From contig CP000067.1 in the NCBI GenBank assembly GCA_000002445.1, positions 800,001-864,000 of the forward strand: a stretch of DNA of 64,000 bases, read 5' to 3'. The notes under the pieces were generated by a model. The model saw only the letters and a program-made list of their open reading frames with translations, ran no database searches and was not told where the DNA came from. The translations under genes and the position numbers were made by a program. Positions 42,804 through 61,160 of this stretch are shown here, one piece after another (the first letter of the stretch is position 1; every line of letters begins with the position of its first letter). Origin of the DNA: Trypanosoma brucei. Taxonomy: Eukaryota.

Positions 42804-42822
42804 TCGAACCCACGCCCCTAGA

Positions 42823-42861
<39 letters not shown>

Positions 42862-42868
42862 CACCGCC
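42789..42868 (-). tRNA. tRNA-Leu (anticodon TAG), long-variable-arm type
   Basis: Acceptor GGCGGTG/CACCGTC, D-arm GCCGAGTGGTCTAAGGC, anticodon loop TTTAGGC, variable arm TCTCTAGGGGC, T-arm GTGGG-TTCGAAC-CCCAC, and a T-run after the 3' end. Confidence 0.8.
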
Positions 42869-42926
42869 ACCACCGCCGGTTTCGCGGGCGAATTTCTGTT
42901 ATAAACTTACTCCCGCAGTAAAAATA

Positions 42927-42999
42927 TGCGATCGGTGAGGCTCGAACTCACGACCTTGGGATTATGAAACCCACGCGCTGCCGACTGCGCCACGCTCGC
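42927..42999 (-). tRNA. tRNA-Met (anticodon CAT), elongator type (G1:C72, T54)
   Basis: Acceptor GCGAGCG/CGATCGC (one mismatch), anticodon stem with GGG:CCC, loop TTCATAA, T-arm GTGAG-TTCGAGC-CTCAC. The sequence is identical to the plus-strand copy at 60774-60846. Confidence 0.75.
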
Positions 43000-47179: not shown

Positions 47180-48109
47180 TTATACTGAAGACGCCATAAG
47201 ACTACTGAAAAGGGAATGGAGTTTGTCAGAGAGGGTGTCAATTCTGGAAGCACGTTCCGACAGCTTAGAAAGCATGACTTCAATTTCTGAGGATACATCA
47301 TTTATTTCTTTGAGGTGAGGAAGAAAAGACTTGAAAACTCTTGTTACGTTCACATCTTCTACCAGGCCGTATCTATTCGCAAGGACCTTGTCCCTACCCA
47401 AATTACCCCTTATTCCCCTGTGTTTGAAGATGTGTCCATGGGAAGTGGACACCGAATCAACTCTGTCAGCCAGTTTTCTTCCTCCAGTGCTATACGCCGT
47501 TCCATTGTGAAACCTCAAGTCGACGTGCTCGTCCCTGCTGCTGTCAAATTCGGTAATTATATCAGAAACGTCCCTTCCAGTTAAGGTTCCATCACACGTG
47601 ACTTGTATCCCATTATTCCTACAAAAGCCATGTGAATTATTCAGCATGCGCACTGCCTCCGATCCAACTCTGTACATCTCCTCCATTGTGGCTGCATACC
47701 TGGTTCCGGTTCTTACAACATCCATTGCCTTTTCCTCCATATAAGAAACACTAAGATCGAATTTCTTCCGTAAGTAGCTTTCACCTTCGAAAACACTCTC
47801 CATCTCATTTAATATTTCCTTCATTTTATCACCCTTCTCTTTTTTCATAAATGGTTTTCCGCGTAGGAATAATTCTCTCCACGCTGCATTCTGTTCTTCT
47901 GCCGAATACCTCTTCTCATACACCTCCTCTGCATGTACTCTAGTTCTTAAAAGTAGATCCTCCGTCACATTAATCATCCAATTAAGCTTCTTCACGACAC
48001 AGTCAATTTGTTTAAGGGTTGAGAGTGCTTCTTTATCAGTCTCCTGCATTCGAGAATCCACCAAGACAACAGAAATTGCAGCAAACACTACCGGAACTAT
48101 CCTCACCAT
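47180..48109 (-). CDS. array unit 1, 'A'-type secreted protein: signal peptide, ~310 aa, several N-glycosylation sequons, no C-terminal hydrophobic/GPI-type tail. The ORF opens at 48187.
   Basis: Paralog of 49729-50658, 52260-53204 and 54814-55740. Shares 'IDCVVKKLNWMINVTEDLLLRTRVHAEEVYEKRYSAEE'. Confidence 0.7.
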   Translation of the reverse strand: MVRIVPVVFAAISVVLVDSRMQETDKEALSTLKQIDCVVKKLNWMINVTEDLLLRTRVHAEEVYEKRYSAEEQNAAWRELFLRGKPFMKKEKGDKMKEILNEMESVFEGESYLRKKFDLSVSYMEEKAMDVVRTGTRYAATMEEMYRVGSEAVRMLNNSHGFCRNNGIQVTCDGTLTGRDVSDIITEFDSSRDEHVDLRFHNGTAYSTGGRKLADRVDSVSTSHGHIFKHRGIRGNLGRDKVLANRYGLVEDVNVTRVFKSFLPHLKEINDVSSEIEVMLSKLSERASRIDTLSDKLHSLFSSLMASSV

Positions 48110-48254
48110 CCCAAGCACTTGTACCACGTAAAAGAGAACTACAGAAAAATACACGTTCTTTAAGAGAAGCACCACACACACACACACGCTAGTAGCGTGA
48201 AACTTACAATTGTAAAAATATTTTAGAAAATTACTAACATTTCCCCACCTATTT

Positions 48255-49373
48255 CTAAAACGGTACCAAGACGCACAAAAGCAACGCTACCCATGGTAGA
48301 GTTTGTTGAAACTTCACCACACCATTATTATCTTCACTATAATTATCATTCCATGGAGAATCCTTCGCGTTTCCTAATGTTTCCGTAAGTTCATTGGTCC
48401 TTTCCTTCATTTTAACAATACTTCTGACTTTTTCTTCAAGTTCCAGAAGCAACCTATCGAGTACAGCTCGTTGAGCTGTGATGGAGGTGTTTCCTGCAGA
48501 TATCTTTATGACGCTGGCACTCAGCAGATCGATTAGTTCCTGAAATTCTTCTCCAATAGAACTGAAGTTTGCCATAAGTCTGTCATTCTGTGTGTAAAAG
48601 AGGCCACCAGAAAGTTCATTGATAAAGGGCTTCTTCCCTTTTGTGTACGGCTGGTATGTCGTCGTGATATAGCATCCATAAACAGCATCGGCACCTTGAT
48701 CTCCTGCATTTCCCATAGTCAAACTGAGTTCTGTATTAAGAGGATTTTCATACTCAGCAAGGCCACCCTCGCTGTGCTGTGGTGGCTCAACTGTGCAGTC
48801 TCTGGGAACACTGCCGCGTTTACCACCTCTTATGCAATCGCCAGTTGCCCCTCCATCCACCACAAGACAGCAATTTCCATATCCTAGTGCTGCATGGTGG
48901 AAAACTTCCACCATATCCTTAATCCAGTACGCGTACGAGTCAGACATATTCAGAAGGTTCCACGATGGCAACCTCATAGCCCGCAGTGAAGTATTCATGT
49001 TTTTAATGCTTTTTTTTAACTCCAATAGTGACTCTTCCGTTTCAATCAACAACTTTGCCACCTCATTCACTCTTTTACCTCCATCTGGAATTACTTCTTT
49101 CAGAACATCCACTAAAATTGTTTTTGTTCGAACACGTGCACTGTAGTGAGCTACAATTTTTTCACAGTCTTCCACTATTTTCTCCCCGAATTTCATATTA
49201 TGTGTCACATTGTTCCTCAGTTCCCTCAGCTTCCTAACTATACTACAGATGGCATTTGCATCACTTTGTGTCAGTGCCTTGCCCTTACCCTTTTCATCAC
49301 CCTCCGGTCCACTGTTAGCACATGCCACCACCAGAAAACTAAACATAATCACCACTCCTCCAACTGAAATCAT
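48255..49373 (-). CDS. array unit 1, 'B'-type surface glycoprotein: signal peptide 'MISVGGVVIMFSFLVVACA', ~375 aa, C-terminal hydrophobic GPI-type tail 'WVALLLCVLVPF'. The ORF opens at 49439.
   Basis: Paralog of the B copies at 50780, 53338 and 55871. Cys pairs such as 'CCLVVDGGATGDC' and many NxS/T sequons. Confidence 0.7.
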   Translation of the reverse strand: MISVGGVVIMFSFLVVACANSGPEGDEKGKGKALTQSDANAICSIVRKLRELRNNVTHNMKFGEKIVEDCEKIVAHYSARVRTKTILVDVLKEVIPDGGKRVNEVAKLLIETEESLLELKKSIKNMNTSLRAMRLPSWNLLNMSDSYAYWIKDMVEVFHHAALGYGNCCLVVDGGATGDCIRGGKRGSVPRDCTVEPPQHSEGGLAEYENPLNTELSLTMGNAGDQGADAVYGCYITTTYQPYTKGKKPFINELSGGLFYTQNDRLMANFSSIGEEFQELIDLLSASVIKISAGNTSITAQRAVLDRLLLELEEKVRSIVKMKERTNELTETLGNAKDSPWNDNYSEDNNGVVKFQQTLPWVALLLCVLVPF

Positions 49374-49728
49374 ATTATCACCTTCATACACAAAACAAGC
49401 AAAAAGGAGCTTTGAAAGCATGTGCTTCTTATTCCCCATATCATACTGTTATTCAAGTAAAGACAAATCTTCGCTGACACATTATCAAGGCACCCAAAAA
49501 CATGATATCGCAATGCGACCACACGTAGTCGGCCAGAAGCAGCAATAGCATATAAACACACATTCATATTTGCACATGCACATTCATTTCATGGTTATTG
49601 GACGGTTATTTTATGGTTATTTGCAAGAGGAGGGTGCAGTGAGAGTGTTAATACTGCTGACAGTTGTTGAGGCACAGGGTGTAAAAAGAGAAGGTGAGCG
49701 AAAGAGGCGTGTGTTCTCTTTTTCATTT

Positions 49729-50658
49729 TTAAGCTGTGGATATGGTGATGCTGCTGAAGATTGACTGGAGTTCCTTTTCGAGAGCGTCGATTCTGGAAGT
49801 TTGTTCCAACAGCTTGGAAGGCGTGGCTTCAATTTCGGAGATGATGTCGTTGATTTCTCTTAGAGGTGTGACAAACAACTTGAGAAGCTCTGATGCATTC
49901 ACCTTTTCTACCGAGCGAAGTTTATTCGTTTGGACGTTGTCTTTACCCAAATTGTTCCTTATTCCTCTGTGCTTGAGGACGAGCCCAAGGGAGGTGGACG
50001 CCGTATTGACTTTATCGGCCAATTTGTTTCCCCCATGGCTCTGAAACCCTCCACCGGTAAATGACAAGTCCATATAATCAGCGTCGCTGTCGAAATCGCC
50101 AACAATACCGGAAATATCTTTCCCAACAAAAGTTGTCCCGCACTTGACGTATGCACCATTATCCCCACAATAGCCATGCGACTTATTTACAATACATACT
50201 GCCTCTAATCCAACTCTGTACATCTCCACCATTGTGGCTGCATACCTGGTTCCGGTTCTTACAACATCCATCACCTTTTCCTCCAGATAAGAAACATTAA
50301 GGTTAAATTTCTTCCGTAAGTAGCTTTCACCTTCGAAAACACTCTCCATCTCATTTAATATTTCCTTCATTTTATCACCCTTCTGTTTTTTCATAAATGG
50401 TTTTACGTACACGAATAATCGTTCCCAGGCTGCGTATCTTTCCTCCGCCGAATACCTCTTCTCATACACCTCCTCTGCATGCACTCTAGTTCTTAAAAGT
50501 AGATCCTCCGTCACATTAATCATCCAATTAAGTTTCTTCACGACACAGTCAATTTGGTTAAGAGTTGTCAGTGACTCGTCGTTGTCCGCTTCTGGTGACA
50601 TGTTCTCTGCCAACACAACCCAAACTACAAAAAGCATCACTAGAAGTATCCTTATCAT
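49729..50658 (-). CDS. array unit 2, 'A'-type secreted protein (no GPI-type tail)
   Basis: Paralog of the A family. Signal peptide 'ILLVMLFVVWVVLA'. Confidence 0.7.
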   Translation of the reverse strand: MIRILLVMLFVVWVVLAENMSPEADNDESLTTLNQIDCVVKKLNWMINVTEDLLLRTRVHAEEVYEKRYSAEERYAAWERLFVYVKPFMKKQKGDKMKEILNEMESVFEGESYLRKKFNLNVSYLEEKVMDVVRTGTRYAATMVEMYRVGLEAVCIVNKSHGYCGDNGAYVKCGTTFVGKDISGIVGDFDSDADYMDLSFTGGGFQSHGGNKLADKVNTASTSLGLVLKHRGIRNNLGKDNVQTNKLRSVEKVNASELLKLFVTPLREINDIISEIEATPSKLLEQTSRIDALEKELQSIFSSITISTA

Positions 50659-50779
50659 CCTATAAACTTATTCCACACAAAATCGAACTACAGAAAATAA
50701 TGCCCCTTTCCGGAAAGAGACCACACCGCTAGTAACATGAAGCTGTTATTAAAAATATTTTATAAAATTACTCACTTTC

Positions 50780-51904
50780 TCAACTATTTCCAAATACAAA
50801 TGGGAGAAGAAGCAGAGCCACTCCTAGCAGAGTTTGCTGAACCCTTGCTACACTGTCACTCTCATTACTCTCTTTATCATTCCAATGAATATGTTTCACT
50901 ATTCCTAGTGTTTCTGTAAGTTCATTGGTTGTTTCCTTTTTTTCCAGAATATATCTGACTCTTTCTTCAAGTTCCAGAAGCAACCTATCGAGTACAGCTC
51001 GTTGAGCTGTGATGGAGGTGTTTCCTGCAGATATCTTTATGACGCTGGCACTCAGCAGATCGATTAGTTCCTGAAATTCTTCTCCAATAGAACTGAAGTT
51101 GGCAACGACGTTGTTATTCTGTGTGTAAAAGAGTCCTCCTGAAAGTTCATAAATGAGAGATTTCCTCCCCGAAGTGTAAGACTGATGTGTCGTCGTGATA
51201 TAGCAGCCATACTCCGAGTAGTTTCTGTAGTTTCCTGCATTTCCCATCGTTAAAGTGAGTCCTTCATCAAGAGGGTTTTTGTACTCAGCAAGGCTACCCT
51301 CGCTGCGCTGTAGCGGCTCAACTATGCAGTCTCTGGGAACACTGCCGCGTTTACCGTTCTTCATGCAATCGCCCGTTGCCCCTCCATCCACCACAAGACA
51401 ACAACTTAGAGTGCTAAGTGCCGCGTGGGCAAAACTCTCCACCGTGTCCTTAATCCAGTACGCGTACGAGTCAGACATATTCAGAAGGTTCCACGATGGC
51501 AACCTCATATATCCAAGCGACGAATGCATTTGCGCAACTAAATTTCTTAATTCATCTTTCAGTACTTTCATATCGCTCAAAAGCTTTATTATTTCAGTTA
51601 AAATTTCATCTTCTTCCGGAATTACTTCTTTCAAAACATCCACTAAAATTGTTTTTGTTTGAACACGTGCACTGTAGTGAGCTACAATTTTTTCACAGTC
51701 TTCCACTATTTTCTCCCCGAATTTCATATTATGTGTCACATTGTTCCTCAGTTCCCTCAGCTTCCTAACTATACTACAGATGGCATTTGCATCACTTTGT
51801 GTCAGTGCCTTGCCCTTACCCTTTTCATCACCCTCCGGTCCACTGTTAGCACATGCCACCACCAGAAAACTAAACATAATCACCACTCCTCCAACTGAAA
51901 TCAT
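50780..51904 (-). CDS. array unit 2, 'B'-type GPI-type surface glycoprotein. The ORF opens at 51970.
   Basis: Its N-terminal 100 aa are identical to B1 and B3. The C-terminal hydrophobic tail is 'LLGVALLLLPFVF'. Confidence 0.7.
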   Translation of the reverse strand: MISVGGVVIMFSFLVVACANSGPEGDEKGKGKALTQSDANAICSIVRKLRELRNNVTHNMKFGEKIVEDCEKIVAHYSARVQTKTILVDVLKEVIPEEDEILTEIIKLLSDMKVLKDELRNLVAQMHSSLGYMRLPSWNLLNMSDSYAYWIKDTVESFAHAALSTLSCCLVVDGGATGDCMKNGKRGSVPRDCIVEPLQRSEGSLAEYKNPLDEGLTLTMGNAGNYRNYSEYGCYITTTHQSYTSGRKSLIYELSGGLFYTQNNNVVANFSSIGEEFQELIDLLSASVIKISAGNTSITAQRAVLDRLLLELEERVRYILEKKETTNELTETLGIVKHIHWNDKESNESDSVARVQQTLLGVALLLLPFVFGNS

Positions 51905-52259
51905 ATTATCACCTTCATACACAAAACAAGCAAAAAGGAGCTTTGAAAGCATGTGCTTCTTATTCCCCATATCATACTGTTATTCAAGTAAAGACAAATC
52001 TTCGCTGACACATTATCAAGGCACCCAAAAACATGATATCGCAATGCGACCACACGTAGTCGGCCAGAAGCAGCAATAGCATATAAACACACATTCATAT
52101 TTGCACATGCATATTCATTTCGTGGTTATTGGACGGTTATTTTATGGTTATTTGCAAGAGGAGGGTGCAGTGAAAGTGTTAATACTGCTGACAGTTGTTG
52201 AGGCACAGGGTGTAAAAAGAGAAGGTGAGCGAAAGAGGCGTGTGTTCTCTTTTTCATTT

Positions 52260-53204
52260 TTAAGCTGTGGATATGGTGATGCTGCTGAAGATTGACTGGA
52301 GTTCCTTTTCGAGAGCGTCGATTCTGGAAGTTTGTTCCAACAGCTTGGAAGGTGTGGCTTCAATTTCGGAGATGATGTCGTTGATTTCTCTTAGAGGTGT
52401 AATAAAGGACTTGAATATCCTTGGTGAGTGAACAAACTCTACCAAGCCGTTTCCATTCGTGATGACCTTGGATTTACCCAAGTTACTTCTTATTCCTCTG
52501 TGCTTGATGATGTGCCCATAAGAGGTGGACGCCGCATTAACTTTATCGGCCAACTTGCTGCCTCCGTGTCCGCTCTGCGCTACTTTCTGTGTTTTCCTGT
52601 TTTGGAATGACAAGTCGATGTGTTCAGAGCTGTTTTCCAACACTCTAACGACGTCAGAAATGTCTTTCCCAACAAAAGTTGTCCCGCACTTGACGTATGC
52701 ACCATTATCCCCACAATAGCCATGCGACTTATTTACAATACATACTGCCTCTAATCCAACTCTGTACATCTCCACCATTGTGGCTGCATACCTGGTTCCG
52801 GTTCTTACAACATCCATCACCTTTTCCTCCAGATAAGAAACATTAAGGTTAAATTTCTTCCGTAAGTAGCTTTCACCTTCGAAAACACTCTCCATCTCAT
52901 TTAATATTTCCTTCATTTTATCACCCTTCTCTTTTCTCACAAAGTTTTTTACGTATACGTATAATTCTTTCCATGTTGTGAACCTTTCCTCTAGTGAATA
53001 CTTTTTCCCATACACCTCCTCTGCATGCACTCTAGTTCTTAAAAGTAGATCCTCCGTCACATTAATCATCCAATTAAGTTTCTTCACGACACAGTCGATT
53101 CTTTTTAGAGTAAAGCATGGTTCTCTATAACTCACCTGTGTTCTTCCAGCATATGGCAACACAAAGAAAACGACGGTAACGGTCACTTGACTTATCTTAA
53201 TCAT
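52260..53204 (-). CDS. array unit 3, 'A'-type secreted protein
   Basis: The central block and C-terminus are identical to A2. Confidence 0.7.
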   Translation of the reverse strand: MIKISQVTVTVVFFVLPYAGRTQVSYREPCFTLKRIDCVVKKLNWMINVTEDLLLRTRVHAEEVYGKKYSLEERFTTWKELYVYVKNFVRKEKGDKMKEILNEMESVFEGESYLRKKFNLNVSYLEEKVMDVVRTGTRYAATMVEMYRVGLEAVCIVNKSHGYCGDNGAYVKCGTTFVGKDISDVVRVLENSSEHIDLSFQNRKTQKVAQSGHGGSKLADKVNAASTSYGHIIKHRGIRSNLGKSKVITNGNGLVEFVHSPRIFKSFITPLREINDIISEIEATPSKLLEQTSRIDALEKELQSIFSSITISTA

Positions 53205-53337
53205 TCCACACTCTTACTTCAGGAAAAACTAAGCCAGTTCGAAGAGCGTACCTTTTTTGGAAGGGCACATCGCTTACACGCTAGTAGTAATAAGCTGTCA
53301 ATTGCACAAATATTTTAGAAAATTACACACTTTCCAC

Positions 53338-54459
53338 CTATTTCCAAAATACAGAAAAGACGAAAAGAAGCAGAGCCACTTCTGATAGATTTGGTTTCTT
53401 GCTCATACCATCACTCTCATAACTCTCATTATCATACCAGGAAACATCTTCTATGCTTCCTAATCTTTTCGTAACATCCATGACTCTCTTTTTCCTTTTA
53501 AGGATATCTCCAACTTCTTCCTCAAACCTCAGTAACAAGCTGTGGAGTATAGTTCGTTGACCTGTGATAGATGTGTTCCACGTGAAAATGTCGCTGATAC
53601 TAGTGTTCAGTTGATCGATTAGTTCCTGAAATTCTTTTCCAACAGAACTGAAGTTGGCAACGACGTTGTTATTCTGTGTGTAAAAGAGTCCTCCTGAAAG
53701 TTCATTTATAAAGGATTTCTTTGTATTAAAGCCACCTGCGGTGCTTGTGATGTAGCAACCGTAACTATTTGGGGTTTTACCGTAGTTTCCTGAATTTCCC
53801 ATAGTCAAACTGAGTTCTGTATTAAGAGGATTTTCATACTCAGCAAGGCTACCCTCGCTGTGCTGTGGTGGCTCAACTATGCAGTCTCTGGGAACTATTC
53901 CTCGTTTTCGGTCAAAGGGACAATCTTCCATTGACCCTCCATCTACCACAAGACAGCAACTCCCGGGGCTAAACGCTGCATAGTGAAAAAAATCCACCAT
54001 ATCCTTAATCCAGTACGCATATGAGTCCGATATATTTACAAGGTTCCACGATGGCAACCTCATAGCCCGCAGTGAAGCATTCATGCTCGTAATTGTCTTC
54101 CCTAATCCATCCCTCAGTTCCCCCATCTTCTCCAGGATTCTTTCCATCCCACTGAAACTTGACTTTTCTTCTGCCATTACTTTCTCCAACACGCTCACCA
54201 GCATTTTCTTAGACATAACTTTCGCGCCGTAGTAACTTTTCACGTCTTCAGCCTCGTCCACTATTTTCTCCCCGAATTTCATATTATGTGTCACATTGTT
54301 CCTCAGCTCCCTCAGCTTCCTAACTATACTACAGATGGCATTTGCATCACTTTGTGTCAGTGCCTTGCCCTTACCCTTTTCATCACCCTCCGGTCCACTG
54401 TTAGCACATGCCACCACCAGAAAACTAAACATAATCACCACTCCTCCAACTGAAATCAT
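53338..54459 (-). CDS. array unit 3, 'B'-type GPI-type surface glycoprotein. The ORF opens at 54525.
   Basis: Paralog of the B family. C-terminal tail 'VALLLFVFSVFW'. Confidence 0.7.
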   Translation of the reverse strand: MISVGGVVIMFSFLVVACANSGPEGDEKGKGKALTQSDANAICSIVRKLRELRNNVTHNMKFGEKIVDEAEDVKSYYGAKVMSKKMLVSVLEKVMAEEKSSFSGMERILEKMGELRDGLGKTITSMNASLRAMRLPSWNLVNISDSYAYWIKDMVDFFHYAAFSPGSCCLVVDGGSMEDCPFDRKRGIVPRDCIVEPPQHSEGSLAEYENPLNTELSLTMGNSGNYGKTPNSYGCYITSTAGGFNTKKSFINELSGGLFYTQNNNVVANFSSVGKEFQELIDQLNTSISDIFTWNTSITGQRTILHSLLLRFEEEVGDILKRKKRVMDVTKRLGSIEDVSWYDNESYESDGMSKKPNLSEVALLLFVFSVFWK

Positions 54460-54813
54460 ATTATCACCTTCATACACAAAACAAGCAAAAAGGAGCTTTG
54501 AAAGCATGTGCTTCTTATTCCCCATATCATACTGTTATTCAAGTAAAGACAAATCTTCGCTGACACATTATCAAGGCACCCAAAAACATGATATCGCAAT
54601 GCGACCACACGTAGTCGGCCAGAAGCAGCAATAGCATATAAACACACATTCATATTTGCACATGCATATTCATTTCATGGTTATTGGACGGTTATTTTAT
54701 GGTTATTTGCAAGAGGAGGGTGCAGTGAAAGTGTTAATACTGCTGATGCTTGTAATTAACATTGGCTCAAAAGGAATTATGTTCACGCATTTTTTTTATT
54801 ATACTGAAGACGC

Positions 54814-55740
54814 TCAAAGGCTGTTAAAGAGGGATTCAAGTTTCTTTTCGAGAATAGAAAACTTGTGAACACGTTCCGACAGCTTGGAAGGTGTGGCTTC
54901 AACTTCGGAGGTGAGATTACCGACTTCCCTTAGATGTGTGACAAACAACTTGAGAAGCTTCGCTGCACTCACGTGTTCTACCAAGTCGCGTTCATCCATG
55001 AGAACTCTGGCCTTTCCCAAACTATTACCTATTCCTCTGTGCTTGATGACACGTCCAAACGTGGTCGATACATTATGAACTCTATCAGCCAGCTTGTTTC
55101 CCCCTTTACTCCAGTGACCTCCGTTCTCAAACCTTAGATCTATATTTTCTTCAGTGCCGCTACCAAATTCAGCAACGATAATAGATAAATTTCCCCCAGA
55201 GAAGGCTCTCTCGCATGTAACATTGGCTTCATAAATTTCACAACTTTTTGGTACTTCTTTTCCAGAACGCACAGCTTCCAATCCAACTCTGTACATCTCC
55301 TCCATTGTGGCTGAATACCTGATACCGACTCTTACAATAGTCATCATTTTTTTTTCAAAGTAAGAAACATTAAGGTTAAAGTTTTTCTGCAAGTAGCTTT
55401 CAGTTTCAACGATTCTCTCCATCTCATTTAATATTTCCTTCATTTTATCACCCTTCTGTTTTTTCATAAATGGTTTTACGTACACGAATAATCGTTCCCA
55501 GGCTGCGTATCTTTCCTCCAGCAAATACTTCTTTTTATATACCTTTTCTGCATGCACTCTAGCTCTTAAAAGTAGATCCTCCGTCACATTAATCATCCAA
55601 TTAAGCTTCTTCACGACACAGTCAATTTGCTTAAGAGTTGAGAGAGATTCATCTCCGTGTGTTGTTTCCGCTATAACCCCCCAAAAAACAACTAGAACAA
55701 CTAAAGTGACAGCAAACACCACCTGAATCATCCTCATCAT
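54814..55740 (-). CDS. array unit 4, 'A'-type secreted protein
   Basis: Paralog of the A family. Shares 'ERYAAWERLFVYVKPFMKKQKGDKMKEILNEME' with A2. Confidence 0.7.
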   Translation of the reverse strand: MMRMIQVVFAVTLVVLVVFWGVIAETTHGDESLSTLKQIDCVVKKLNWMINVTEDLLLRARVHAEKVYKKKYLLEERYAAWERLFVYVKPFMKKQKGDKMKEILNEMERIVETESYLQKNFNLNVSYFEKKMMTIVRVGIRYSATMEEMYRVGLEAVRSGKEVPKSCEIYEANVTCERAFSGGNLSIIVAEFGSGTEENIDLRFENGGHWSKGGNKLADRVHNVSTTFGRVIKHRGIGNSLGKARVLMDERDLVEHVSAAKLLKLFVTHLREVGNLTSEVEATPSKLSERVHKFSILEKKLESLFNSL

Positions 55741-55870
55741 ATGTACCTATTCCACGAAAAGCGAATCACAGGAAAACGTGTAGCCTTTAGTAAGGGTACA
55801 ACACACGCGGTAGTAGAACATAATTGTCGTCTGTATAAATATTTTAGATCACTTACTTCTCCACATACTT

Positions 55871-56980
55871 TTAGAAGAATACCAGGAAGAATAGAAACAG
55901 ACTCACCCCTCGGAGGGTTGGTTGCGTCCCCATACCATCGCTATTCCCACTCTCGTTACCAAACCATGGAATGTTCTTCGTGCTACCTAATGCTTCCGTA
56001 ATTGCTTTGTTCTTTTCTTTCTCAAGGACATGTCTGATTTCTTTCTTCAGCTTAAGTAGCAAACCATCGAGTACAGCTCGTTGTCTTGTAATTGATGTGT
56101 TCCACGCGGAAAAATTGTTTGTGACTCTTCTTAGCGGATCGATTAGCTCCTGAAATTCCTTTCCAACAAAAGTGAAGTTGGCCATAAGTCTGTTATTCTG
56201 TGTGTAAAAGAGGCCACCAGAAAGTTCATAAATGAGAGATTTTTTCCCCCTGCTGTAAGTGTCATTTGTTGTTGTGATGAAGCAGCCACATAGCGGGTAT
56301 TCGCCTTCGTCCCCTGCATTTCCCATCGTTAAAGTGAGTCCTTCATCAAGAGGGTTTTTGTACTCAGCAAGGCCACCCTCGCTGCGCTGTGGCGGGTAAA
56401 TAGTGCAATCCGTGGGGACACTGCCGCGTTTACCACCTCTTATGCAATCTCCCGTTGCCCCTCCATCCACCACAAGACAACAATTCCCGCTTCCGAATGC
56501 TGTCTGGGCAAAGAGTTCTACCATATCTTTCACCCAGTACGCATACGAGTCAGACATATTTGTGAGGTTCCACATTTGCACACTCATGCACCCGAGTGAA
56601 GCGTTCACATTCGTAATACTTCTTTTCAACACCTGGATCGGCTCCTCCATATCACTCAGCAGCTTTCCCATCACGCTCAACTTTTCTCCTTCTTCAGGAA
56701 TTAGTTTTCCCAAAACCTTCACTAACATTTTCTTTGCTTCAACACGTGTGCTGTAGTAAGTAGCAACGTTTTCGCCATTGTCCACGATTTTTTCACCCAA
56801 TTTCATATTACGCGTCACGTTATTTGCCAACTCCCTCAACTGTTTGACCACATTGCAAATGGCATCTGCATCACTTTGCGTCAGCGCCTTGCCCTTACCC
56901 TCGATGTCACCCTCCGCTTGACCGTAAGCACATACCACCACTAAACAAGCCACAACCATTCCCCTTTTGAGTGGCATCAT
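55871..56980 (-). CDS. array unit 4, 'B'-type GPI-type surface glycoprotein, the most diverged B copy. The ORF opens at 57019.
   Basis: Signal peptide 'MMPLKRGMVVACLVVVCAYGQA' and C-terminal tail 'LRGVSLFLFFLVFF'. Confidence 0.7.
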   Translation of the reverse strand: MMPLKRGMVVACLVVVCAYGQAEGDIEGKGKALTQSDADAICNVVKQLRELANNVTRNMKLGEKIVDNGENVATYYSTRVEAKKMLVKVLGKLIPEEGEKLSVMGKLLSDMEEPIQVLKRSITNVNASLGCMSVQMWNLTNMSDSYAYWVKDMVELFAQTAFGSGNCCLVVDGGATGDCIRGGKRGSVPTDCTIYPPQRSEGGLAEYKNPLDEGLTLTMGNAGDEGEYPLCGCFITTTNDTYSRGKKSLIYELSGGLFYTQNNRLMANFTFVGKEFQELIDPLRRVTNNFSAWNTSITRQRAVLDGLLLKLKKEIRHVLEKEKNKAITEALGSTKNIPWFGNESGNSDGMGTQPTLRGVSLFLFFLVFF

Positions 56981-57092
56981 ATTATCCCCTCCTTCCAGAA
57001 ACGCAAGAAAGGCAAACAAATTGTGGATCCCTACGTGCGTATTCAGTCGGAGAACAGATCTTGATTACAATAAGTAGAACATTTGGGCTATA

Positions 57093-58325
57093 TTACGAAA
57101 ACACCAACAAAACAAAAATGCTCACCATTAAATCGAAATGGGCATCACCCTCCGTGTCAACATCCAAATTTTCTGCCTTGCCCCAGATATCTATGTTTCC
57201 TCCAAGTTTGTACTCAAGAAACATTTCCTCAGCGTCATGCTGTAAATCTTCCAACTCGTAAATATGGGAGTTTGCTTCACTTTCATACTTCTCCATGTCT
57301 TCCATGTTCTTTGTGGCATTGGTGAGACGATTGTGCCACGGTATGCCGCCATGGGATAAGGTGTGTTTGTAATTCACACACGTTGTTCCGGGTCTGTGGC
57401 CATCACATAGAAATGTTTCATTACTCGTATCATTCACGTGGCCAAATACGCCTTCCACCTGAAACTTGTCCTGCCTCATGTTAACAGATTTATCAAACTC
57501 CTCCAATGCAGCCTTTAACAGCTTTGAGTTGGATGCAATGTGCCTGTACACGCATCCGCGCTTTACCACTTGCCAAGCATCTTTGAGTGTCATTGATGAA
57601 TTAACCTCACATTTCTCTTCGGCCAAGGCGCACTCATTGCTCATGCCCGTCCACTTATTTTTTTCTGGTCGCCTCAAGTAGGTCCTGCAGGGCGAACTAT
57701 GCCCGTTGTAATAGTAGCTGCTGCTGTTCGCCTCGTCTTTCGCCTCTCCCACACATACACAAAAAAAGTCGTTAACAAGTGTTTTTCCAGTTTCATTACC
57801 GTTGCTTCCACAGCTTTCCAGAGCAGATTCATTGCTGTTGAACAGTAAACTTTTATTAGTTTCCATAATATCGTCAATGGGTCTGTTGGTCTTATGTGCC
57901 TCATCCACTAAATCACCATACACAGCTTTCATCATGCTCTCCTCAGCCTTACTGCTCTCCCGCATCGCCCTCTTTCTATTCCTGTCAATCTCTCCCTTCA
58001 CCGCTTTTGCTCTTTTGTATAGTTTCTCAATCCCTTCACGCGCCTTTTGGCTCACAGAAGTTTCTTTTCCGTTCGCTCTCGCCTCACTCACCATTACCTC
58101 GAACCTCTTCATAATCTCATCTTCCTTCTCACGGTTTCTAAATTCCGGCCTTGGCACCTTTGCTTGAGTGATCCTGTAAATCTTACAAAGGATCTCAAAC
58201 TCTCCGGTGTTGTGTTGGTAATCAGTAATGTTGAAAACACCCTTCTGTTGACCCTGACTTCCTCTTATTGATCCCCATAAAAGAGCAACCAACAATAGCA
58301 CCCCAGCGCAACCACGTCTCTTCAT
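57093..58325 (-). CDS. VSG-like / ESAG-like GPI-type surface glycoprotein (410 aa) with a signal peptide and C-terminal hydrophobic tail. Contains the motif 'NDFFCVCVGE'.
   Basis: N-terminal 'GVLLLVALLWGSIRG', C-terminal 'LMVSIFVLLVFS', a Cys-rich central region, and many sequons. Confidence 0.65.
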   Translation of the reverse strand: MKRRGCAGVLLLVALLWGSIRGSQGQQKGVFNITDYQHNTGEFEILCKIYRITQAKVPRPEFRNREKEDEIMKRFEVMVSEARANGKETSVSQKAREGIEKLYKRAKAVKGEIDRNRKRAMRESSKAEESMMKAVYGDLVDEAHKTNRPIDDIMETNKSLLFNSNESALESCGSNGNETGKTLVNDFFCVCVGEAKDEANSSSYYYNGHSSPCRTYLRRPEKNKWTGMSNECALAEEKCEVNSSMTLKDAWQVVKRGCVYRHIASNSKLLKAALEEFDKSVNMRQDKFQVEGVFGHVNDTSNETFLCDGHRPGTTCVNYKHTLSHGGIPWHNRLTNATKNMEDMEKYESEANSHIYELEDLQHDAEEMFLEYKLGGNIDIWGKAENLDVDTEGDAHFDLMVSIFVLLVFS

Positions 58326-58435
58326 AATTTCCTATTACAACCAAATGGGAAGCAAATATCAACAACATGCCACGCAGCAGCAGTCATTTAGGAAAATGCG
58401 GAAGCTGGGAAAAGCTAAAAATATAACACGGAAAG

Positions 58436-59716
58436 TTAAGCGACAAAGGCAGTCAGCGCCATCATTGCTAAAACAGTCAAAGATATTGAAAAGCCGGCCC
58501 CATCCTCTTCCACCTCGTTCACTTCACTCTCCATCATTAAGTGTTCCAAATTCAAGTTAATCTTTGCTGCTGCACTTTTCATATTCTCCGCTAATTTCCA
58601 CAGCCTTCCAAGCAAAACCTTTGCCTCCTTATTGTGCCTTTCCATTTCCACCAGGTACTTCTCCGCATCCAGCAACCTCAGCTGCCACTCAATTCCCTTC
58701 TGCGTCAGAAGTCTATACGCATAATTCACGCACATTTGGTCATTCTTCCCCGTGCATATGTTTTCGCTGCGGTCAAAAACACCCGTATGTATTTTTTTTG
58801 CTCTCCCAAACACGTAGGTCCGAAATCCCTCCGATTCTTTCATGTTCATGATTATATTCTCCCTCTGCCTTCCAAGAAGCTTATTGAACTCCCTCACTGC
58901 ATCTTGGATTTTTTCTGGCGTTATCAATTTCAAATTTTCATTTTTTGGACAGGCTTCATCCTTTATCTTAAACCAGCCGGGGCCAAAAGCCACATCACTT
59001 CCATCATACGACACATTTTTCCACAGTTTCTTTCTACCCGGCCCCTTGATACTTTTGTGACAAACGGTCTCATTATTCTCTTCTCCAACGCACAAGCAAA
59101 AAAAGTCCCCCACGAGCGAACGCCCAGCCATGGCATCCTCAGTCGAGGGATGATACCCAGCTCCGCACGTTTCCTCTGCGGAGTTTCCTATTAAAGTGTC
59201 TCCGGTGTGCACCGCAAACTTTTCAAACTCCTCCTTCTCCATCAGCCTCCCAGCATTCGCCCCATAAACGACTTGCGCCATTCTTTCGAGTGCAAATTTC
59301 CTTGACACATTCGCCAGGCGCCGTTCCTCTCTTATTCCACTCACGAGTATGGTTGCCTTTTCCGCTAGTTTTATTAACTTCTCATGTGTTACCCTCCACC
59401 GAATAATATCATTTGCACGATGCATACTCATCTTAGCGGCCCCACTATTGTTAACTGTTCCTTTCCTCCTTTCCATAGCTTCTTTATACAAGGAATCCTT
59501 CACGTATGTCGCTTTCACAAACATCTGTAGCCTGTCGATGATACTCGTTAGATTCGCAGGCTCTTCCATTATTTTCTCTGGTTCCCCCTCCGCCAACCTC
59601 AATATCTCACACATTTGGTTGAACTCTTTTTCATTCACTAACTTTGAATCCTCTCCACACACCAAGTGGAAGGCACCAAAGGCCGTTAACAAGAATGTCA
59701 CTATGATTTCCTTCAT
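58436..59716 (-). CDS. second VSG-like GPI-type surface glycoprotein (about 426 aa from the 'MKEIIVTFLLTAFGAF' start). Contains 'GDFFCLCVGE'. The ORF opens at 59767.
   Basis: Signal peptide and C-terminal 'ISLTVLAMMALTAFVA'. Shares a Cys motif with the neighbouring gene. Confidence 0.65.
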   Translation of the reverse strand: MKEIIVTFLLTAFGAFHLVCGEDSKLVNEKEFNQMCEILRLAEGEPEKIMEEPANLTSIIDRLQMFVKATYVKDSLYKEAMERRKGTVNNSGAAKMSMHRANDIIRWRVTHEKLIKLAEKATILVSGIREERRLANVSRKFALERMAQVVYGANAGRLMEKEEFEKFAVHTGDTLIGNSAEETCGAGYHPSTEDAMAGRSLVGDFFCLCVGEENNETVCHKSIKGPGRKKLWKNVSYDGSDVAFGPGWFKIKDEACPKNENLKLITPEKIQDAVREFNKLLGRQRENIIMNMKESEGFRTYVFGRAKKIHTGVFDRSENICTGKNDQMCVNYAYRLLTQKGIEWQLRLLDAEKYLVEMERHNKEAKVLLGRLWKLAENMKSAAAKINLNLEHLMMESEVNEVEEDGAGFSISLTVLAMMALTAFVA

Positions 59717-60614
59717 TATCAAAGCCCTGCTACAAACAAAAAGAAAGTAAAGGCACCAACAAGACAATCCTCCAACCAGAAGATGCTCCTAATCGCAGAT
59801 AAAAGAGATCACTTTTGTAACGCAAGAAAAGCATCCAAAGCCACCAACCGAGCATCCCAACCGTCATACAAACGTATTTCCGAATGGCCAAACCACCGTA
59901 ATTTTAAAAATCTCTCACACATTCACGATTGAACACTATACGTGATAAAAAAAGCGTGCTCTGATTTAAGCCTTCCCAATGCATTGCTGAGCCCACGCAC
60001 GGCCCCTCTCAACCTTAACGCGCAGTTTTTCACGGAGTGAAACCAACCAAAAAAGCAAGCAGGTCACAGCTTTTTTAATGTCTTCACGCGCAGGCAGCTT
60101 ATATATAATTACTGCGGCAAAGAGAGGAACAGAGTAATGGAAAGTATTTAAAGGATCACAGACAAAAAGAAGCAGAACAAACCTGAACGTTATTCCGTGG
60201 TTACTGCCTTGTGGGGAAAGAGGGCCGCGGCATGGGAAAGCGCTTTAATTCAGGTCTCGGCGCCACACGGAACTGCAGAGGCTCACGCGCCAATGAGTGG
60301 CGACAAACCGACTGACAGCGATATCACACTTCTGAACTTCCTTTTCCTTTGTGGTGAGTGCCCTGAGGCTCATCCTCCGTTTTTCTCCTGAAGCTTCCCC
60401 GAATCAATTTTATCCTCCTTAACAGCGATGAAGCAGCGGAGTTATGCGCAATAGACAACCGCTGCGGGAGCGGCGAAACATTGAAATGTCCTCGACAGAG
60501 GATACTGGCACGGCAGCTGCAACGGTCGGCAAGTTCCAAAACTCATCGTCTTGGACCGTTCTCTCGAGTAACGTGCCCGTCGCCGCATCAAGCACGTTGA
60601 CCTCTAAAAAAAGT

Positions 60615-60686
60615 TTCCGGTGCCGGGGATCGAACCCGGGTCTAGCGGGTGAGAGCCGCTTGTTCTAGCCACTATACCACACCGGA
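60615..60686 (-). tRNA. tRNA-Glu (anticodon CTC)
   Basis: Acceptor TCCGGTG/CACCGGA, anticodon stem AGCGG/CCGCT with loop CTCTCAC, T-arm CCGGG-TTCGATC-CCCGG, and T7 after the 3' end. Confidence 0.8.
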
Positions 60687-60773
60687 GATGCATCTCGTCA
60701 AATCTACACTTACGTTCTAAACCATAAGTTGTGATGCAGACGTTCATAATTTACTATCGAGCGGCCCCGCACC

Positions 60774-60846
60774 GCGAGCGTGGCGCAGTCGGCAGCGCGT
60801 GGGTTTCATAATCCCAAGGTCGTGAGTTCGAGCCTCACCGATCGCA
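60774..60846 (+). tRNA. tRNA-Met (anticodon CAT), elongator type, arranged divergently to tRNA-Glu
   Basis: Same 73-nt sequence as 42927-42999 on the opposite strand. Followed by a T6 terminator. Confidence 0.75.
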
Positions 60847-60889
60847 CTTTTTTGATTTCCACCTGCGAGTTTTTCAGCAGGAGAAAACC

Positions 60890-60970
60890 CGTCGACAGCA
60901 GGGTTCGAACCTGCGCGCGAGATCGCATTTGATTTCAAGTCAAACCCCGTAACCACTTGGGTATGTCGAC
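60890..60970 (-). tRNA. tRNA-Ser (anticodon TGA), long variable arm
   Basis: Perfect 7-bp acceptor GTCGACA/TGTCGAC, discriminator G, anticodon stem TTTGA/TCAAA with loop CTTGAAA, 13-nt variable arm, T-arm GCAGG-TTCGAAC-CCTGC. Confidence 0.75.
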
Positions 60971-61011
60971 AACGGTTTACCCGACTATTTCAAACTAATA
61001 AAAAAACAGAT

Positions 61012-61025
61012 CCACCACCGTCAGT
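61012..61025 (+). pseudogene. 3'-terminal ~14 nt fragment of tRNA-Leu(TAG) (acceptor 3' strand plus part of the T-stem). It sits at the inner boundary of the right inverted-repeat arm.
   Basis: 'CCACCACCGTCAG' matches the 3' end of the intact tRNA-Leu at 42789-42868. The homology then stops. Confidence 0.55.
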
Positions 61026-61086
61026 CGTTTTCGTGTTTAAATCAATTGAACTGAGGAAATGATACAAAAATTGCCGGAGCGGGCAA

Positions 61087-61160
61087 GCGCTGATGGTCTA
61101 GGTGGTTATGACGTCGCTTTAACACGGCGAAGGTCTCGGGTTCGAGTCCCGATCGGCGTA
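61087..61160 (+). tRNA. tRNA-Val (anticodon AAC), the copy in the right inverted-repeat arm
   Basis: Identical to the reverse complement of 42652-42725 and followed by TTTT. Confidence 0.8.

What the first reader, a model, noticed from the sequence alone, without database searches (positions are those of the whole stretch)
57093..59767. Two distinct VSG-like GPI-type genes sharing a 'DFFC[VL]CVGE' cysteine motif lie immediately upstream of the array
Both proteins (410 aa and ~426 aa) have signal peptides, C-terminal hydrophobic GPI-type tails, many sequons, and the shared motif 'NDFFCVCVGEAKDE' / 'GDFFCLCVGEENNE'. Otherwise they are very different from each other and from A and B. Their intergenic spacers are only ~75-110 nt, so ten surface-type genes are packed into 12.6 kb. 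They may be additional members of a VSG-fold superfamily cluster, such as decoys, co-receptors or stage-specific coats.
Basis: partly seen in the sequence, partly recalled or inferred. Interest (0 to 1): 0.55.

Follow-up and report, generated by a model that had tools for sequence, protein, structure and literature searches.

The report
Two known ESAG2-family VSG-like genes
The two genes are already-annotated Trypanosoma brucei chromosome 4 genes (Tb927.4.3280 and Tb927.4.3290) of the ESAG2 family, surface glycoproteins derived from class-B variant surface glycoproteins, and the shared 'DFFCxCVGE' motif is that family's signature, so the finding is real but ordinary.

Summary
Two minus-strand genes, 57093-58325 (410 aa) and 58436-59716 (426 aa; the ORF extends to 59767 only through an upstream TTG), each encode a signal peptide, a hydrophobic GPI-type tail and the exact motif DFFC[VL]CVGE.

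The window is T. brucei TREU927 chromosome 4. Published PCR primers place Tb927.4.3290 on the 426-aa gene, so the 410-aa gene is Tb927.4.3280, which NCBI names "ESAG protein, putative".

- Both match Pfam VSG_B (E 6e-27 and 4e-36).
- AlphaFold models of both match only class-B VSG crystal structures (Foldseek E 1e-9 to 1e-4). A-type VSG, TfR, HpHbR and GARP do not match.
- The motif is exact in 21/21 ESAG2-family proteins and 0/116 other VSG_B relatives. The looser D-h-h-C-h-C core occurs in 105/116 of those relatives and in the solved VSG615 and VSG3.

The two genes are 24% identical and belong to two old ESAG2 lineages. Gene 1 is sister to canonical ESAG2/GRESAG2. Gene 2 groups with Tb927.11.14620 and T. 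congolense genes. They lack a VSG C-terminal domain and 70-bp repeats, and they evolve under purifying selection. They are therefore invariant VSG-derived glycoproteins, not variant antigens. Function and expression remain unknown; one RT-PCR study got no cDNA product for Tb927.4.3290. Already known; low interest.

The parts
58436..59716 (-). Gene 2 = Tb927.4.3290 (XP_844479, 426 aa). ESAG2-family protein with a class-B VSG N-terminal-domain fold, of the lineage that includes Tb927.11.14620.
   Evidence: Exact NCBI match. Published Tb927.4.3290 primers map at 59540-59561 and 58642-58663. Pfam VSG_B 3.8e-36. 47% identical to chr 11 ESAG2. AF2 pLDDT 81 with Foldseek top hits all class-B VSGs.
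57093..58325 (-). Gene 1 = Tb927.4.3280 (XP_844478, 410 aa, 'ESAG protein, putative'). Divergent sister of canonical ESAG2/GRESAG2.
   Evidence: Exact NCBI match. The ID follows from gene order between primer-anchored .3270 and .3290. Pfam VSG_B 5.8e-27. 41-47% identical to 13 ESAG2/GRESAG2 proteins. AF2 pTM 0.71 with Foldseek class-B VSGs.
57744..57770 (-). DFFCVCVGE motif of gene 1 (aa 186-194)
   Evidence: Invariant columns D186 F187 F188 C189 C191 V192 G193 E194 in alignment A1.
59081..59107 (-). DFFCLCVGE motif of gene 2 (aa 204-212)
   Evidence: D204, C207 and C209 are invariant across ESAG2 proteins plus T. congolense VSGs. The motif aligns to 'SDISCLC' of VSG615 and 'ATIVCVC' of VSG3.
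58251..58325 (-). Predicted signal peptide of gene 1 (about aa 1-25; cleavage site approximate)
   Evidence: Hydrophobic N-terminus. The family is scored SP-positive in Jackson 2013 Table S1.
59654..59716 (-). Predicted signal peptide of gene 2 (about aa 1-21; cleavage site approximate)
   Evidence: Savage 2012 Table 1 lists a signal peptide for Tb927.4.3290.
57096..57146 (-). Predicted GPI-addition signal of gene 1 (DAHFDLMVSIFVLLVFS, 17 aa after a candidate omega Gly)
   Evidence: The omega site is inferred, not predicted by a dedicated tool.
58439..58498 (-). Predicted GPI-addition signal of gene 2 (AGFSISLTVLAMMALTAFVA)
   Evidence: BigPI and FragAnchor are positive for Tb927.4.3290 in Savage 2012 Table 1.
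58326..58435 (-). 110-nt spacer between gene 2 and gene 1. A pyrimidine-rich tract with AG dinucleotides starts directly after the gene 2 stop codon.
   Evidence: 109 of 110 nt are identical in T. equiperdum.
56981..57092 (-). 112-nt spacer between gene 1 and the first ESAG11-related gene (Tb927.4.3270)
47180..56980 (-). Context: downstream array Tb927.4.3200-.3270, four copies of a hypothetical Fam4 gene (about 309 aa) paired with an ESAG11-related Fam3 gene (about 370 aa)
   Evidence: Jackson 2013 Table S1. Carnes 2015 S7 Fig legend.
60615..61160 (.). Context: tRNA cluster (Glu, Met, Ser, Val) between FtsH33 (Tb927.4.3300) and gene 2

Best explanation
The two genes are Tb927.4.3280 and Tb927.4.3290 of Trypanosoma brucei TREU927 chromosome 4. 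They are chromosome-internal paralogues of expression-site-associated gene 2, that is 'GRESAG2-type' genes (cell-surface phylome Fam13).

Shown here. Each encodes one class-B VSG N-terminal-domain fold. Each has an N-terminal hydrophobic leader and a C-terminal hydrophobic GPI-type tail, and neither has a VSG C-terminal domain. DFFC[VL]CVGE is the ESAG2-specific form of the D-h-h-C-h-C core present in almost all b-type VSG domains. The two genes represent two lineages that separated before the T. brucei / T. congolense split. Both are kept intact under purifying selection.

Inferred. The proteins enter the ER, are N-glycosylated (9 and 5 sequons), receive a GPI anchor and sit in the plasma membrane as low-abundance invariant glycoproteins among the VSG coat. 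This would parallel tagged ESAG2 (cell-body membrane) and Tb927.11.14620 (a bloodstream-form GPI glycoprotein carrying poly-N-acetyllactosamine). The two motif cysteines most likely form the conserved disulfides that pin the motif helix to the core of the fold. The most likely role is ligand binding or coat-associated function in the mammalian bloodstream stage, as for other VSG-derived invariant proteins. The ligand is unknown, and expression of these two particular copies has not been demonstrated.

The genes lie in an RNA polymerase II unit just downstream of a tRNA cluster. The spacers are so short (110-112 nt) that the splice-acceptor signals of one gene must abut or overlap the 3' end of the previous gene.
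For: Identity. The exact protein sequences are XP_844478 and XP_844479 on the 1,590,432-bp TREU927 contig. Neighbour FtsH33 is Tb927.4.3300. Published primers for Tb927.4.3290 and .3270 map inside gene 2 and the adjacent gene.

Family.
- Pfam VSG_B 5.8e-27 and 3.8e-36.
- Gene 1 is 41-47% identical to 13 ESAG2/GRESAG2 proteins.
- Gene 2 is 47% identical to chr 11 ESAG2.
- The motif is exact in 21/21 family members and 0/116 other relatives; the core occurs in 105/116.
- The nearest non-brucei relatives are T. congolense VSGs, as published.

Fold.
- AF2 models have pLDDT 69.5 / pTM 0.71 and pLDDT 81.1 / pTM 0.77.
- Foldseek top 23-25 hits are all class-B VSGs: mVSG1954, VSG615, VSG11 and VSG3.
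- The profile-versus-PDB search gives VSG615 at 1.4e-41.

Not a VSG. There are no cysteines after C316/C329. There are no 70-bp repeats. Orthologues in T. equiperdum are 95% and 98% identical with dN/dS 0.16 and 0.36.

Lineages. The NJ tree gives 100% bootstrap for gene 2 plus the chr 11 copy, and 99% for that clade with T. congolense P0030/P0032.

Family biology from the literature.
- ESAG2 localises to the cell-body membrane and is GPI-anchored.
- (GR)ESAG2 RNAi gives the largest fitness loss among ESAGs.
- Tb927.11.14620 is a pNAL-bearing GPI glycoprotein of bloodstream forms.
Against: There is no direct evidence that either gene is expressed. Tb927.4.3290 was dropped from a stage-expression study under the criterion 'cDNA'. 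Neither ID occurs in the held supplements of a bloodstream surface proteome or of a mouse/cattle transcriptome study.

No T. b. gambiense protein clusters with gene 1 at 90% identity, so it may be dispensable.

The 110-nt spacers leave almost no room for a normal T. brucei 3' UTR plus a 5' UTR.

Signal-peptide and GPI predictions for gene 1 rest on hydropathy and family analogy only. The AF2 model of gene 1 is of medium confidence (103 residues below pLDDT 50). The disulfide role of the motif was not checked on coordinates.
Confidence: 0.85

Rival explanations
1. The two genes are silent or barely expressed relics. They would be ESAG2-lineage copies left in the chromosome core that are still intact but no longer make meaningful amounts of protein.
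For: No cDNA product for Tb927.4.3290. Neither gene appears in the surface-proteome and transcriptome supplements searched. The 110-112-nt spacers are awkward for normal mRNA processing. No T. b. gambiense orthologue of gene 1 was retrieved. The adjacent array is variable or absent among strains.
Against: Both ORFs, leaders and tails are intact in TREU927 and T. equiperdum, and gene 2 is also intact in T. b. gambiense. dN/dS is 0.16 and 0.36, not near 1. By contrast, the GRESAG2 copies at the procyclin locus do carry frameshifts in T. evansi, which shows that decay is visible on this time scale. The negative proteome comes from Lister 427, where the locus may differ.
Confidence: 0.15
2. They are insect-stage (procyclic, epimastigote or metacyclic) surface proteins and not bloodstream-stage ones. 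They would be a stage-specific coat component.
For: Another GRESAG2 sits in the procyclin locus. Many predicted GPI proteins of unknown function are salivary-gland or proventriculus specific. The best Foldseek hit for both models is a metacyclic VSG, though this reflects fold class and not stage.
Against: The Savage 2012 screen covered midgut, proventriculus, salivary gland and bloodstream forms and still obtained no cDNA product for Tb927.4.3290. Both genes are kept intact under purifying selection in T. equiperdum, which is not tsetse-transmitted (transmission mode from general knowledge). The close paralogue Tb927.11.14620 is a bloodstream-form protein.
Confidence: 0.1
3. They are ordinary archive VSG genes (b-type variant antigens) that happen to lie in the chromosome core and can be copied into expression sites.
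For: Class-B VSG N-terminal-domain fold and Pfam VSG_B. Signal peptide and GPI-type tail.
Against: There is no VSG C-terminal domain: no cysteines after the N-terminal domain, and only about 35-50 residues before the tail. No 70-bp repeats lie upstream. The closest relatives are ESAG2 proteins, not T. brucei VSGs. Orthologues are conserved at 95-98% between subspecies with dN/dS below 1. The genes are embedded between housekeeping genes and tRNAs.
Confidence: 0.02

Closest known systems
ESAG2 / GRESAG2 of T. brucei (cell-surface phylome Fam13; canonical copies in bloodstream expression sites and at the chr 6 procyclin locus)
   Same: Gene 1 is 41-47% identical over 91-100% of its length. It shares the invariant cysteines and the exact DFFC[VL]CVGE motif, and has the same signal peptide, class-B VSG domain and GPI-tail architecture without a VSG C-terminal domain.
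   Different: Gene 1 lies in the chromosome core, not in a telomeric expression site. It lacks the variable charged insertion that follows the motif in canonical ESAG2 (alignment columns about 255-300). It branches outside the canonical clade.
Tb927.11.14620 (XP_829518, 'ESAG2, putative', chr 11), a pNAL-modified GPI glycoprotein of bloodstream forms
   Same: Gene 2 is 47% identical over 86% of its length with the identical SLVGDFFCLCVGE block. The two form a 100%-bootstrap clade.
   Different: Gene 2 is 62 residues shorter and lacks the acidic C-terminal extension. Expression is proven for Tb927.11.14620 but not for gene 2.
Class-B variant surface glycoproteins (VSG3, VSG11, VSG615, mVSG1954) and T. 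congolense VSGs
   Same: Same N-terminal-domain fold (Foldseek E down to 1.7e-9, TM up to 0.74 on the target; profile E 1.4e-41). Same conserved D-h-h-C-h-C core and other invariant Cys, Gly and Trp positions.
   Different: No C-terminal domain, no 70-bp repeats, not subtelomeric, conserved between subspecies. Only 12-16% identical to the solved VSGs.
Fam1 (Tb927.6.1310 array), a T. brucei-specific b-type-VSG-derived GPI protein at a strand-switch region
   Same: Same evolutionary pattern: a b-type VSG domain that has lost its C-terminal domain, is GPI-anchored and lies chromosome-internally next to a strand-switch region.
   Different: A different family. Fam1 proteins are 347 aa and were not among the close hits. 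The relationship was not tested directly here.

Membership tests
ESAG2 / GRESAG2 family (Fam13) | Significant, near full-length sequence similarity to named ESAG2 proteins | tested here: met
   Gene 1: 13 ESAG2/GRESAG2 hits at E 1e-77 to 1e-107, 41-47% identity. Gene 2: ESAG2 XP_011780782/XP_829518 at E 3e-100, 47% identity.
ESAG2 / GRESAG2 family (Fam13) | Family-invariant DFFC[VL]CVGE block and conserved cysteine framework | tested here: met
   Exact in 21/21 family sequences including both genes, and in 0/116 other VSG_B relatives. Invariant columns listed.
ESAG2 / GRESAG2 family (Fam13) | Signal peptide plus GPI-addition signal, with no VSG C-terminal domain | tested here: inconclusive
   Hydrophobic N- and C-termini and no cysteines after the N-terminal domain. 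BigPI, FragAnchor and SignalP are positive for Tb927.4.3290 in Savage 2012. No dedicated predictor was run here for gene 1, and there is no biochemical evidence.
ESAG2 sensu stricto (expression-site-associated) | Located in a telomeric bloodstream expression site between ESAG3 and ESAG11 | tested here: not met
   The genes lie in the chr 4 core, between FtsH33 with a tRNA cluster and the Tb927.4.3200-.3270 array. They are therefore 'genes related to ESAG2', not ESAG2 proper.
Class-B VSG N-terminal-domain superfamily (Pfam PF13206) | Match to the VSG_B profile above the gathering threshold | tested here: met
   95.3 and 125.5 bits against a cut-off of 25.
Class-B VSG N-terminal-domain superfamily (Pfam PF13206) | Three-dimensional fold of solved class-B VSGs | tested here: met
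   Foldseek against PDB: the top 23-25 hits are all class-B VSGs, E 1.7e-9 to 2e-3, probability 1.00. These are predicted models, not solved structures.
Bona fide VSG (variant antigen) | Cysteine-rich C-terminal domain between the N-terminal domain and the GPI signal | tested here: not met
   The last cysteines are C316 (gene 1) and C329 (gene 2). Only one long helix and a short linker precede the tail.
Bona fide VSG (variant antigen) | Upstream 70-bp repeats and subtelomeric or telomeric location | tested here: not met
   TRF finds no repeat array between 56 and 62.5 kb. The flanks are housekeeping genes and tRNAs.
Bona fide VSG (variant antigen) | Hypervariability between strains | tested here: not met
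   95% and 98% protein identity to T. equiperdum orthologues in the same gene order; dN/dS 0.16 and 0.36.
A-type VSG / ESAG6-7 transferrin receptor / HpHbR-GARP three-helix-bundle proteins | Fold or profile similarity | tested here: not met
   Foldseek E-values: 2vsg 2.5; TfR 6soy 0.47; HpHbR 0.13-1.2; GARP 0.31-0.37; FHR 0.14-0.9; ISG65 0.012-0.019. No Pfam Trypan_glycop hit for either gene.

The most novel reading that the evidence does not exclude
The chr 4 locus could be the core-genome counterpart, either progenitor or relic, of the 'ESAG2-11-1' cassette of bloodstream expression sites. Two anciently diverged ESAG2 lineages sit directly upstream of ESAG11-related genes, in the same order as ESAG2 then ESAG11 in expression sites. 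The whole 18-kb block is bracketed by inverted tRNA-bearing repeats that could have mobilised or inverted it. If so, the interleaved Fam4 genes might be cryptic relatives of ESAG1, and the locus would show how expression-site cargo was assembled from a Pol II-transcribed surface-gene cluster.
Probability: 0.2. Interest if true: 0.4.

Novelty: already known. Interest (0 to 1): 0.15.

Why it matters
As it stands the finding matters little. Both genes are in the reference annotation, one as 'ESAG protein, putative' and the other as a 'VSG B-type N-terminal domain-containing protein'. The descent of ESAG2 from b-type VSG was published in 2012-2013.

Three points have residual value:
- ESAG2-family function is still unknown, although (GR)ESAG2 knockdown gives the strongest fitness loss among ESAGs. 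Single-copy, divergent core-genome members such as these two are easier to target for specific knockouts and ligand screens than the multi-copy expression-site genes.
- Tb927.4.3290 is under-annotated as 'hypothetical'. It belongs with Tb927.11.14620 in a second ESAG2 lineage shared with T. congolense.
- The locus keeps the ESAG2-then-ESAG11 order seen in expression sites, which bears on how expression sites were assembled.

Tried and rejected
- I first assigned the window to chromosome 5 from contig size (note). This was wrong. The DHAP-acyltransferase-like neighbour, the Fam3/Fam4 exemplar IDs, FtsH33 = Tb927.4.3300 and the primer mapping place it on chromosome 4.
- Single-sequence phmmer against PDB found nothing relevant for either protein. 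Only the family profile and the fold search worked.
- The look-up of encoding contigs has no record for the TREU927 gene 1 protein. The T. equiperdum orthologue was used instead.
- Searches for UniProt and RefSeq accessions in papers gave nothing.
- Transcript or protein evidence was sought and not found:
  - The supplements of Gadelha 2015 and the cattle-infection study contain neither gene ID.
  - Siegel 2010 has no supplements held.
- I tested whether the Fam4 'B' genes are hidden ESAG1 relatives, which would complete an ESAG2-11-1 parallel. No Pfam hit of any kind appeared at E up to 10. Structure prediction jobs were exhausted, so this remains untested at the fold level.
- True ESAG11 proteins were not retrieved with the 'A' gene as query, only 'ESAG11-related' ones.
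- A search for 70-bp repeats found none.


Full report
**What is there.** The ORF list shows two minus-strand genes. Gene 1 runs 57093-58325 (410 aa). Both quoted peptides are present, and the core DFFC[VL]CVGE lies at 57744-57770 and 59081-59107. Both proteins begin with a hydrophobic leader and end in a hydrophobic tail: DAHFDLMVSIFVLLVFS and AGFSISLTVLAMMALTAFVA. Gene 1 has 9 N-x-S/T sequons, clearly more than shuffles of its own composition give (3.3 +/- 1.7). Gene 2 has 5, which is marginal. The gene 2 to gene 1 spacer is 110 nt. The gene 1 to next-gene spacer is 73 nt to the mechanical TTG-ORF and 112 nt to the annotated ATG. Ten genes occupy 47180-59767.

**Where it is from.** An exact-sequence look-up identifies both proteins in Trypanosoma brucei brucei TREU927. 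Gene 1 is XP_844478, 'expression site-associated gene (ESAG) protein, putative', which is called ESAG2 in T. equiperdum. Gene 2 is XP_844479, 'hypothetical protein, conserved', which UniProt names 'VSG B-type N-terminal domain-containing protein'. The contig is 1,590,432 bp. I first read that as chromosome 5, which was wrong. The neighbouring metallopeptidase is Tb927.4.3300, FtsH33. The downstream array matches the Fam3 and Fam4 exemplars Tb927.4.3270 and .3260. The published RT-PCR primers for Tb927.4.3290 map at 59540-59561 and 58642-58663, inside gene 2, and the Tb927.4.3270 forward primer maps at 56922-56941 in the next gene down. Gene 2 is therefore Tb927.4.3290, and by position gene 1 is Tb927.4.3280.

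**Family.** Both proteins match Pfam VSG_B far above threshold (95 and 125 bits against a cut-off of 25). Gene 1 is 41-47% identical to thirteen proteins named ESAG2, ESAG or GRESAG2. Gene 2 is 47% identical to one 'ESAG2, putative' on chromosome 11, which is XP_829518; by its product name, mass (56 kDa for 488 aa) and chromosome I equate this with Tb927.11.14620. The two window genes are only 24% identical to each other, though the match is significant at E 2e-15.

In a 16-sequence alignment, D-F-F-C-x-C-V-G-E is invariant. Across everything retrieved, the exact motif occurs in 21/21 ESAG2-family sequences and in 0/116 more distant relatives found by an exhaustive profile search. Of those relatives, 105/116 keep the looser D-hydrophobic-hydrophobic-C-hydrophobic-C core. 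The nearest non-brucei relatives sampled are T. congolense VSGs or VSG-like proteins. This agrees with the published conclusion that ESAG2 belongs to a lineage closest to T. congolense b-type VSG. The motif is thus a family signature built on a superfamily-wide structural core. It is not a special link between two unrelated proteins.

**Fold.** AlphaFold2 models were built from family alignments. They scored pLDDT 69.5 / pTM 0.71 for gene 1 and pLDDT 81.1 / pTM 0.77 for gene 2. Foldseek against PDB returned class-B VSGs as every significant hit for both models: mVSG1954, VSG615, VSG11 and VSG3, with E from 1.7e-9 to about 1e-3 and TM-score up to 0.74 on the target. ISG65 is marginal at about 0.01-0.02. 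A family profile searched against PDB sequences hits the same class-B VSGs (VSG615 1.4e-41, VSG3 about 2e-28, mVSG1954 8e-25, VSG11 5e-22). It aligns the motif to 'SDISCLC' in VSG615 and 'ATIVCVC' in VSG3. Single-sequence searches had found nothing.

**Why they are not VSGs.**
- There is no cysteine after C316 or C329. Only one long helix and a short linker lie before the tail, so there is no VSG C-terminal domain.
- No 70-bp repeats lie upstream.
- The locus sits in the chromosome core, between a helicase, a dihydrouridine synthase, SBDS, an acyltransferase and similar genes on one side and FtsH33 on the other.
- A T. equiperdum contig has the same order: tRNAs, gene 2, 110-nt spacer, gene 1, then an ESAG11-related gene.
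- Against that contig, gene 1 has dN 0.020, dS 0.129 and dN/dS 0.16. Gene 2 has dN 0.010, dS 0.029 and dN/dS 0.36. The spacer differs at 1 of 110 positions.

These are conserved, constrained genes.

**Two lineages.** A neighbour-joining tree places gene 1 as sister to the canonical ESAG2/GRESAG2 clade. Gene 2 groups with the chr 11 copy (100% bootstrap), and that pair groups with T. congolense P0030 (TCIL3000_10_1020) and P0032 (99%). This fits the earlier remark that Tb927.4.3290 is shared only with T. congolense. Support for the deeper nodes around gene 1 was not recovered because of rooting, so its exact position is less secure.

**What is known about the family.** Tagged expression-site ESAG2 localises to the cell-body membrane and is treated as a GPI-anchored protein. 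(GR)ESAG2 knockdown gave the greatest fitness loss among ESAGs in culture. Tb927.11.14620, the paralogue of gene 2, was detected in bloodstream forms (70 PSMs). It is a GPI glycoprotein whose apparent mass collapses from above 100 kDa to about 60 kDa when poly-N-acetyllactosamine synthesis is impaired. No function or ligand is known.

**Expression of these two copies.** Tb927.4.3290 was predicted to be GPI-anchored (BigPI, FragAnchor, signal peptide). It was nevertheless excluded from the tsetse and bloodstream expression analysis under the criterion 'cDNA', and it is absent from that paper's expression table. Neither gene ID occurs in the held supplements of a surface proteome or a mouse/cattle transcriptome study. 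The proteome was from Lister 427, where the neighbouring array is not even annotated, so that absence carries little weight. Expression is therefore unproven. Purifying selection argues that the genes are used somewhere.

**Most likely mechanism.** These are invariant glycoproteins derived from class-B VSG. They would be translocated by the leader, N-glycosylated, GPI-anchored at the tail and displayed at low abundance in the plasma membrane. The CxC cysteines would form structural disulfides. A binding or coat-associated role in the mammalian stage is most plausible by analogy with ESAG2 and Tb927.11.14620. The fold, the family and the selective constraint are shown. The trafficking, the disulfides, the stage and the function are inferred.

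**Context.** The downstream array is the known Tb927.4.3200-.3270 block, four copies of a hypothetical Fam4 gene paired with an ESAG11-related Fam3 gene. It is reported as absent or disrupted in T. evansi STIB805 and variable among strains, with flanking tRNA genes and a possible inversion. I found that inverted structure directly. A 680-nt inverted repeat, 99% complementary (42121-42800 and 61012-61691), and an 80-nt one each carry tRNA genes and bracket the whole surface-gene block. In bloodstream expression sites the conserved order is ESAG3, ESAG2, ESAG11, ESAG1. The chr 4 order, ESAG2-like then ESAG11-related, mirrors it. I could not find an ESAG1 link for the Fam4 genes.

**Verdict.** Small residual points are the under-annotation of Tb927.4.3290, the two ancient ESAG2 lineages lying side by side, the very short spacers, and the expression-site-like gene order.

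Noticed in passing
window 42121-42800 and 61012-61691; also 42920-42999 and 60774-60853: A 680-nt inverted repeat (99% complementary) and an 80-nt one, each carrying tRNA genes (tRNA-Val and tRNA-Met), bracket the whole 18-kb minus-strand surface-gene block. tRNA clusters lie at 42652-43000 and 60615-61160. Carnes 2015 already suspected an inversion or assembly problem here caused by flanking tRNA genes.
   Followed up: partly
window 47180-56980 (-): The 'A/B array' is the known Tb927.4.3200-.3270 block, four copies of a Fam4 hypothetical gene (about 309 aa, signal peptide, no hydrophobic tail) paired with a Fam3 ESAG11-related gene (about 370 aa, GPI-type tail). It is reported absent or disrupted in T. 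evansi STIB805 and not annotated in Lister 427. In T. equiperdum contig L001 the array part is only 70-75% identical to the window, whereas the ESAG2-like pair is above 91% identical.
   Followed up: partly
window 55871-59716 (-): The gene order, ESAG2-like (two copies) then ESAG11-related, mirrors the conserved ESAG2-ESAG11-ESAG1 order of bloodstream expression sites (Hertz-Fowler 2008). The Fam4 genes showed no Pfam similarity of any kind, including to any ESAG1 family; a fold-level comparison was not possible.
   Followed up: partly
window 47180-59716, intergenic spacers: Spacers alternate tightly along the cluster: 110, 112, 130, 351, 133, 352, 121, 352 and 145 nt. The spacers of about 110-145 nt are very short for T. 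brucei mRNA processing, since they must hold a 3' UTR, a polypyrimidine tract and a 5' UTR. T. congolense VSG genes, the nearest relatives, are reported to have 3' UTRs of only 15-30 bp.
   Followed up: no
window 57093-58325 vs L001 3316-4548: Gene 1 differs from its T. equiperdum orthologue at 48 of 1233 nt (dS 0.129), with no differences in the first 248 nt. Gene 2 differs at 18 of 1281 nt (dS 0.029) and the spacer at 1 of 110. The uneven divergence suggests old allelic haplotypes or gene conversion in gene 1. No T. b. gambiense protein clusters with gene 1 at 90% identity.
   Followed up: no
window 42294-42626 (+) and 61186-61518 (-): Two identical 110-aa ORFs (MNSVGMGVILSLPF...) are simply the two arms of the inverted repeat read in the same frame. 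They are almost certainly not genes.
   Followed up: partly
window 55871-57019 (-): The ESAG11-related protein has a very weak sub-threshold Pfam hit to A-type VSG (Trypan_glycop, E 0.2, 11 bits). The literature variously calls ESAG11 VSG-related or ISG-related. This was not resolved here.
   Followed up: no
window 1-41246 (+) vs 47180-63990 (-): Plus-strand housekeeping genes (DEAH helicase, LRR protein, dihydrouridine synthase, SBDS, GPAT/DHAPAT-like acyltransferase, a UBC-like E2) converge on the minus-strand surface-gene unit at a roughly 4-kb ORF-poor, tRNA-bearing region (about 42-47 kb). GC drops from about 0.50 to about 0.41-0.45 across the surface-gene block.
   Followed up: no
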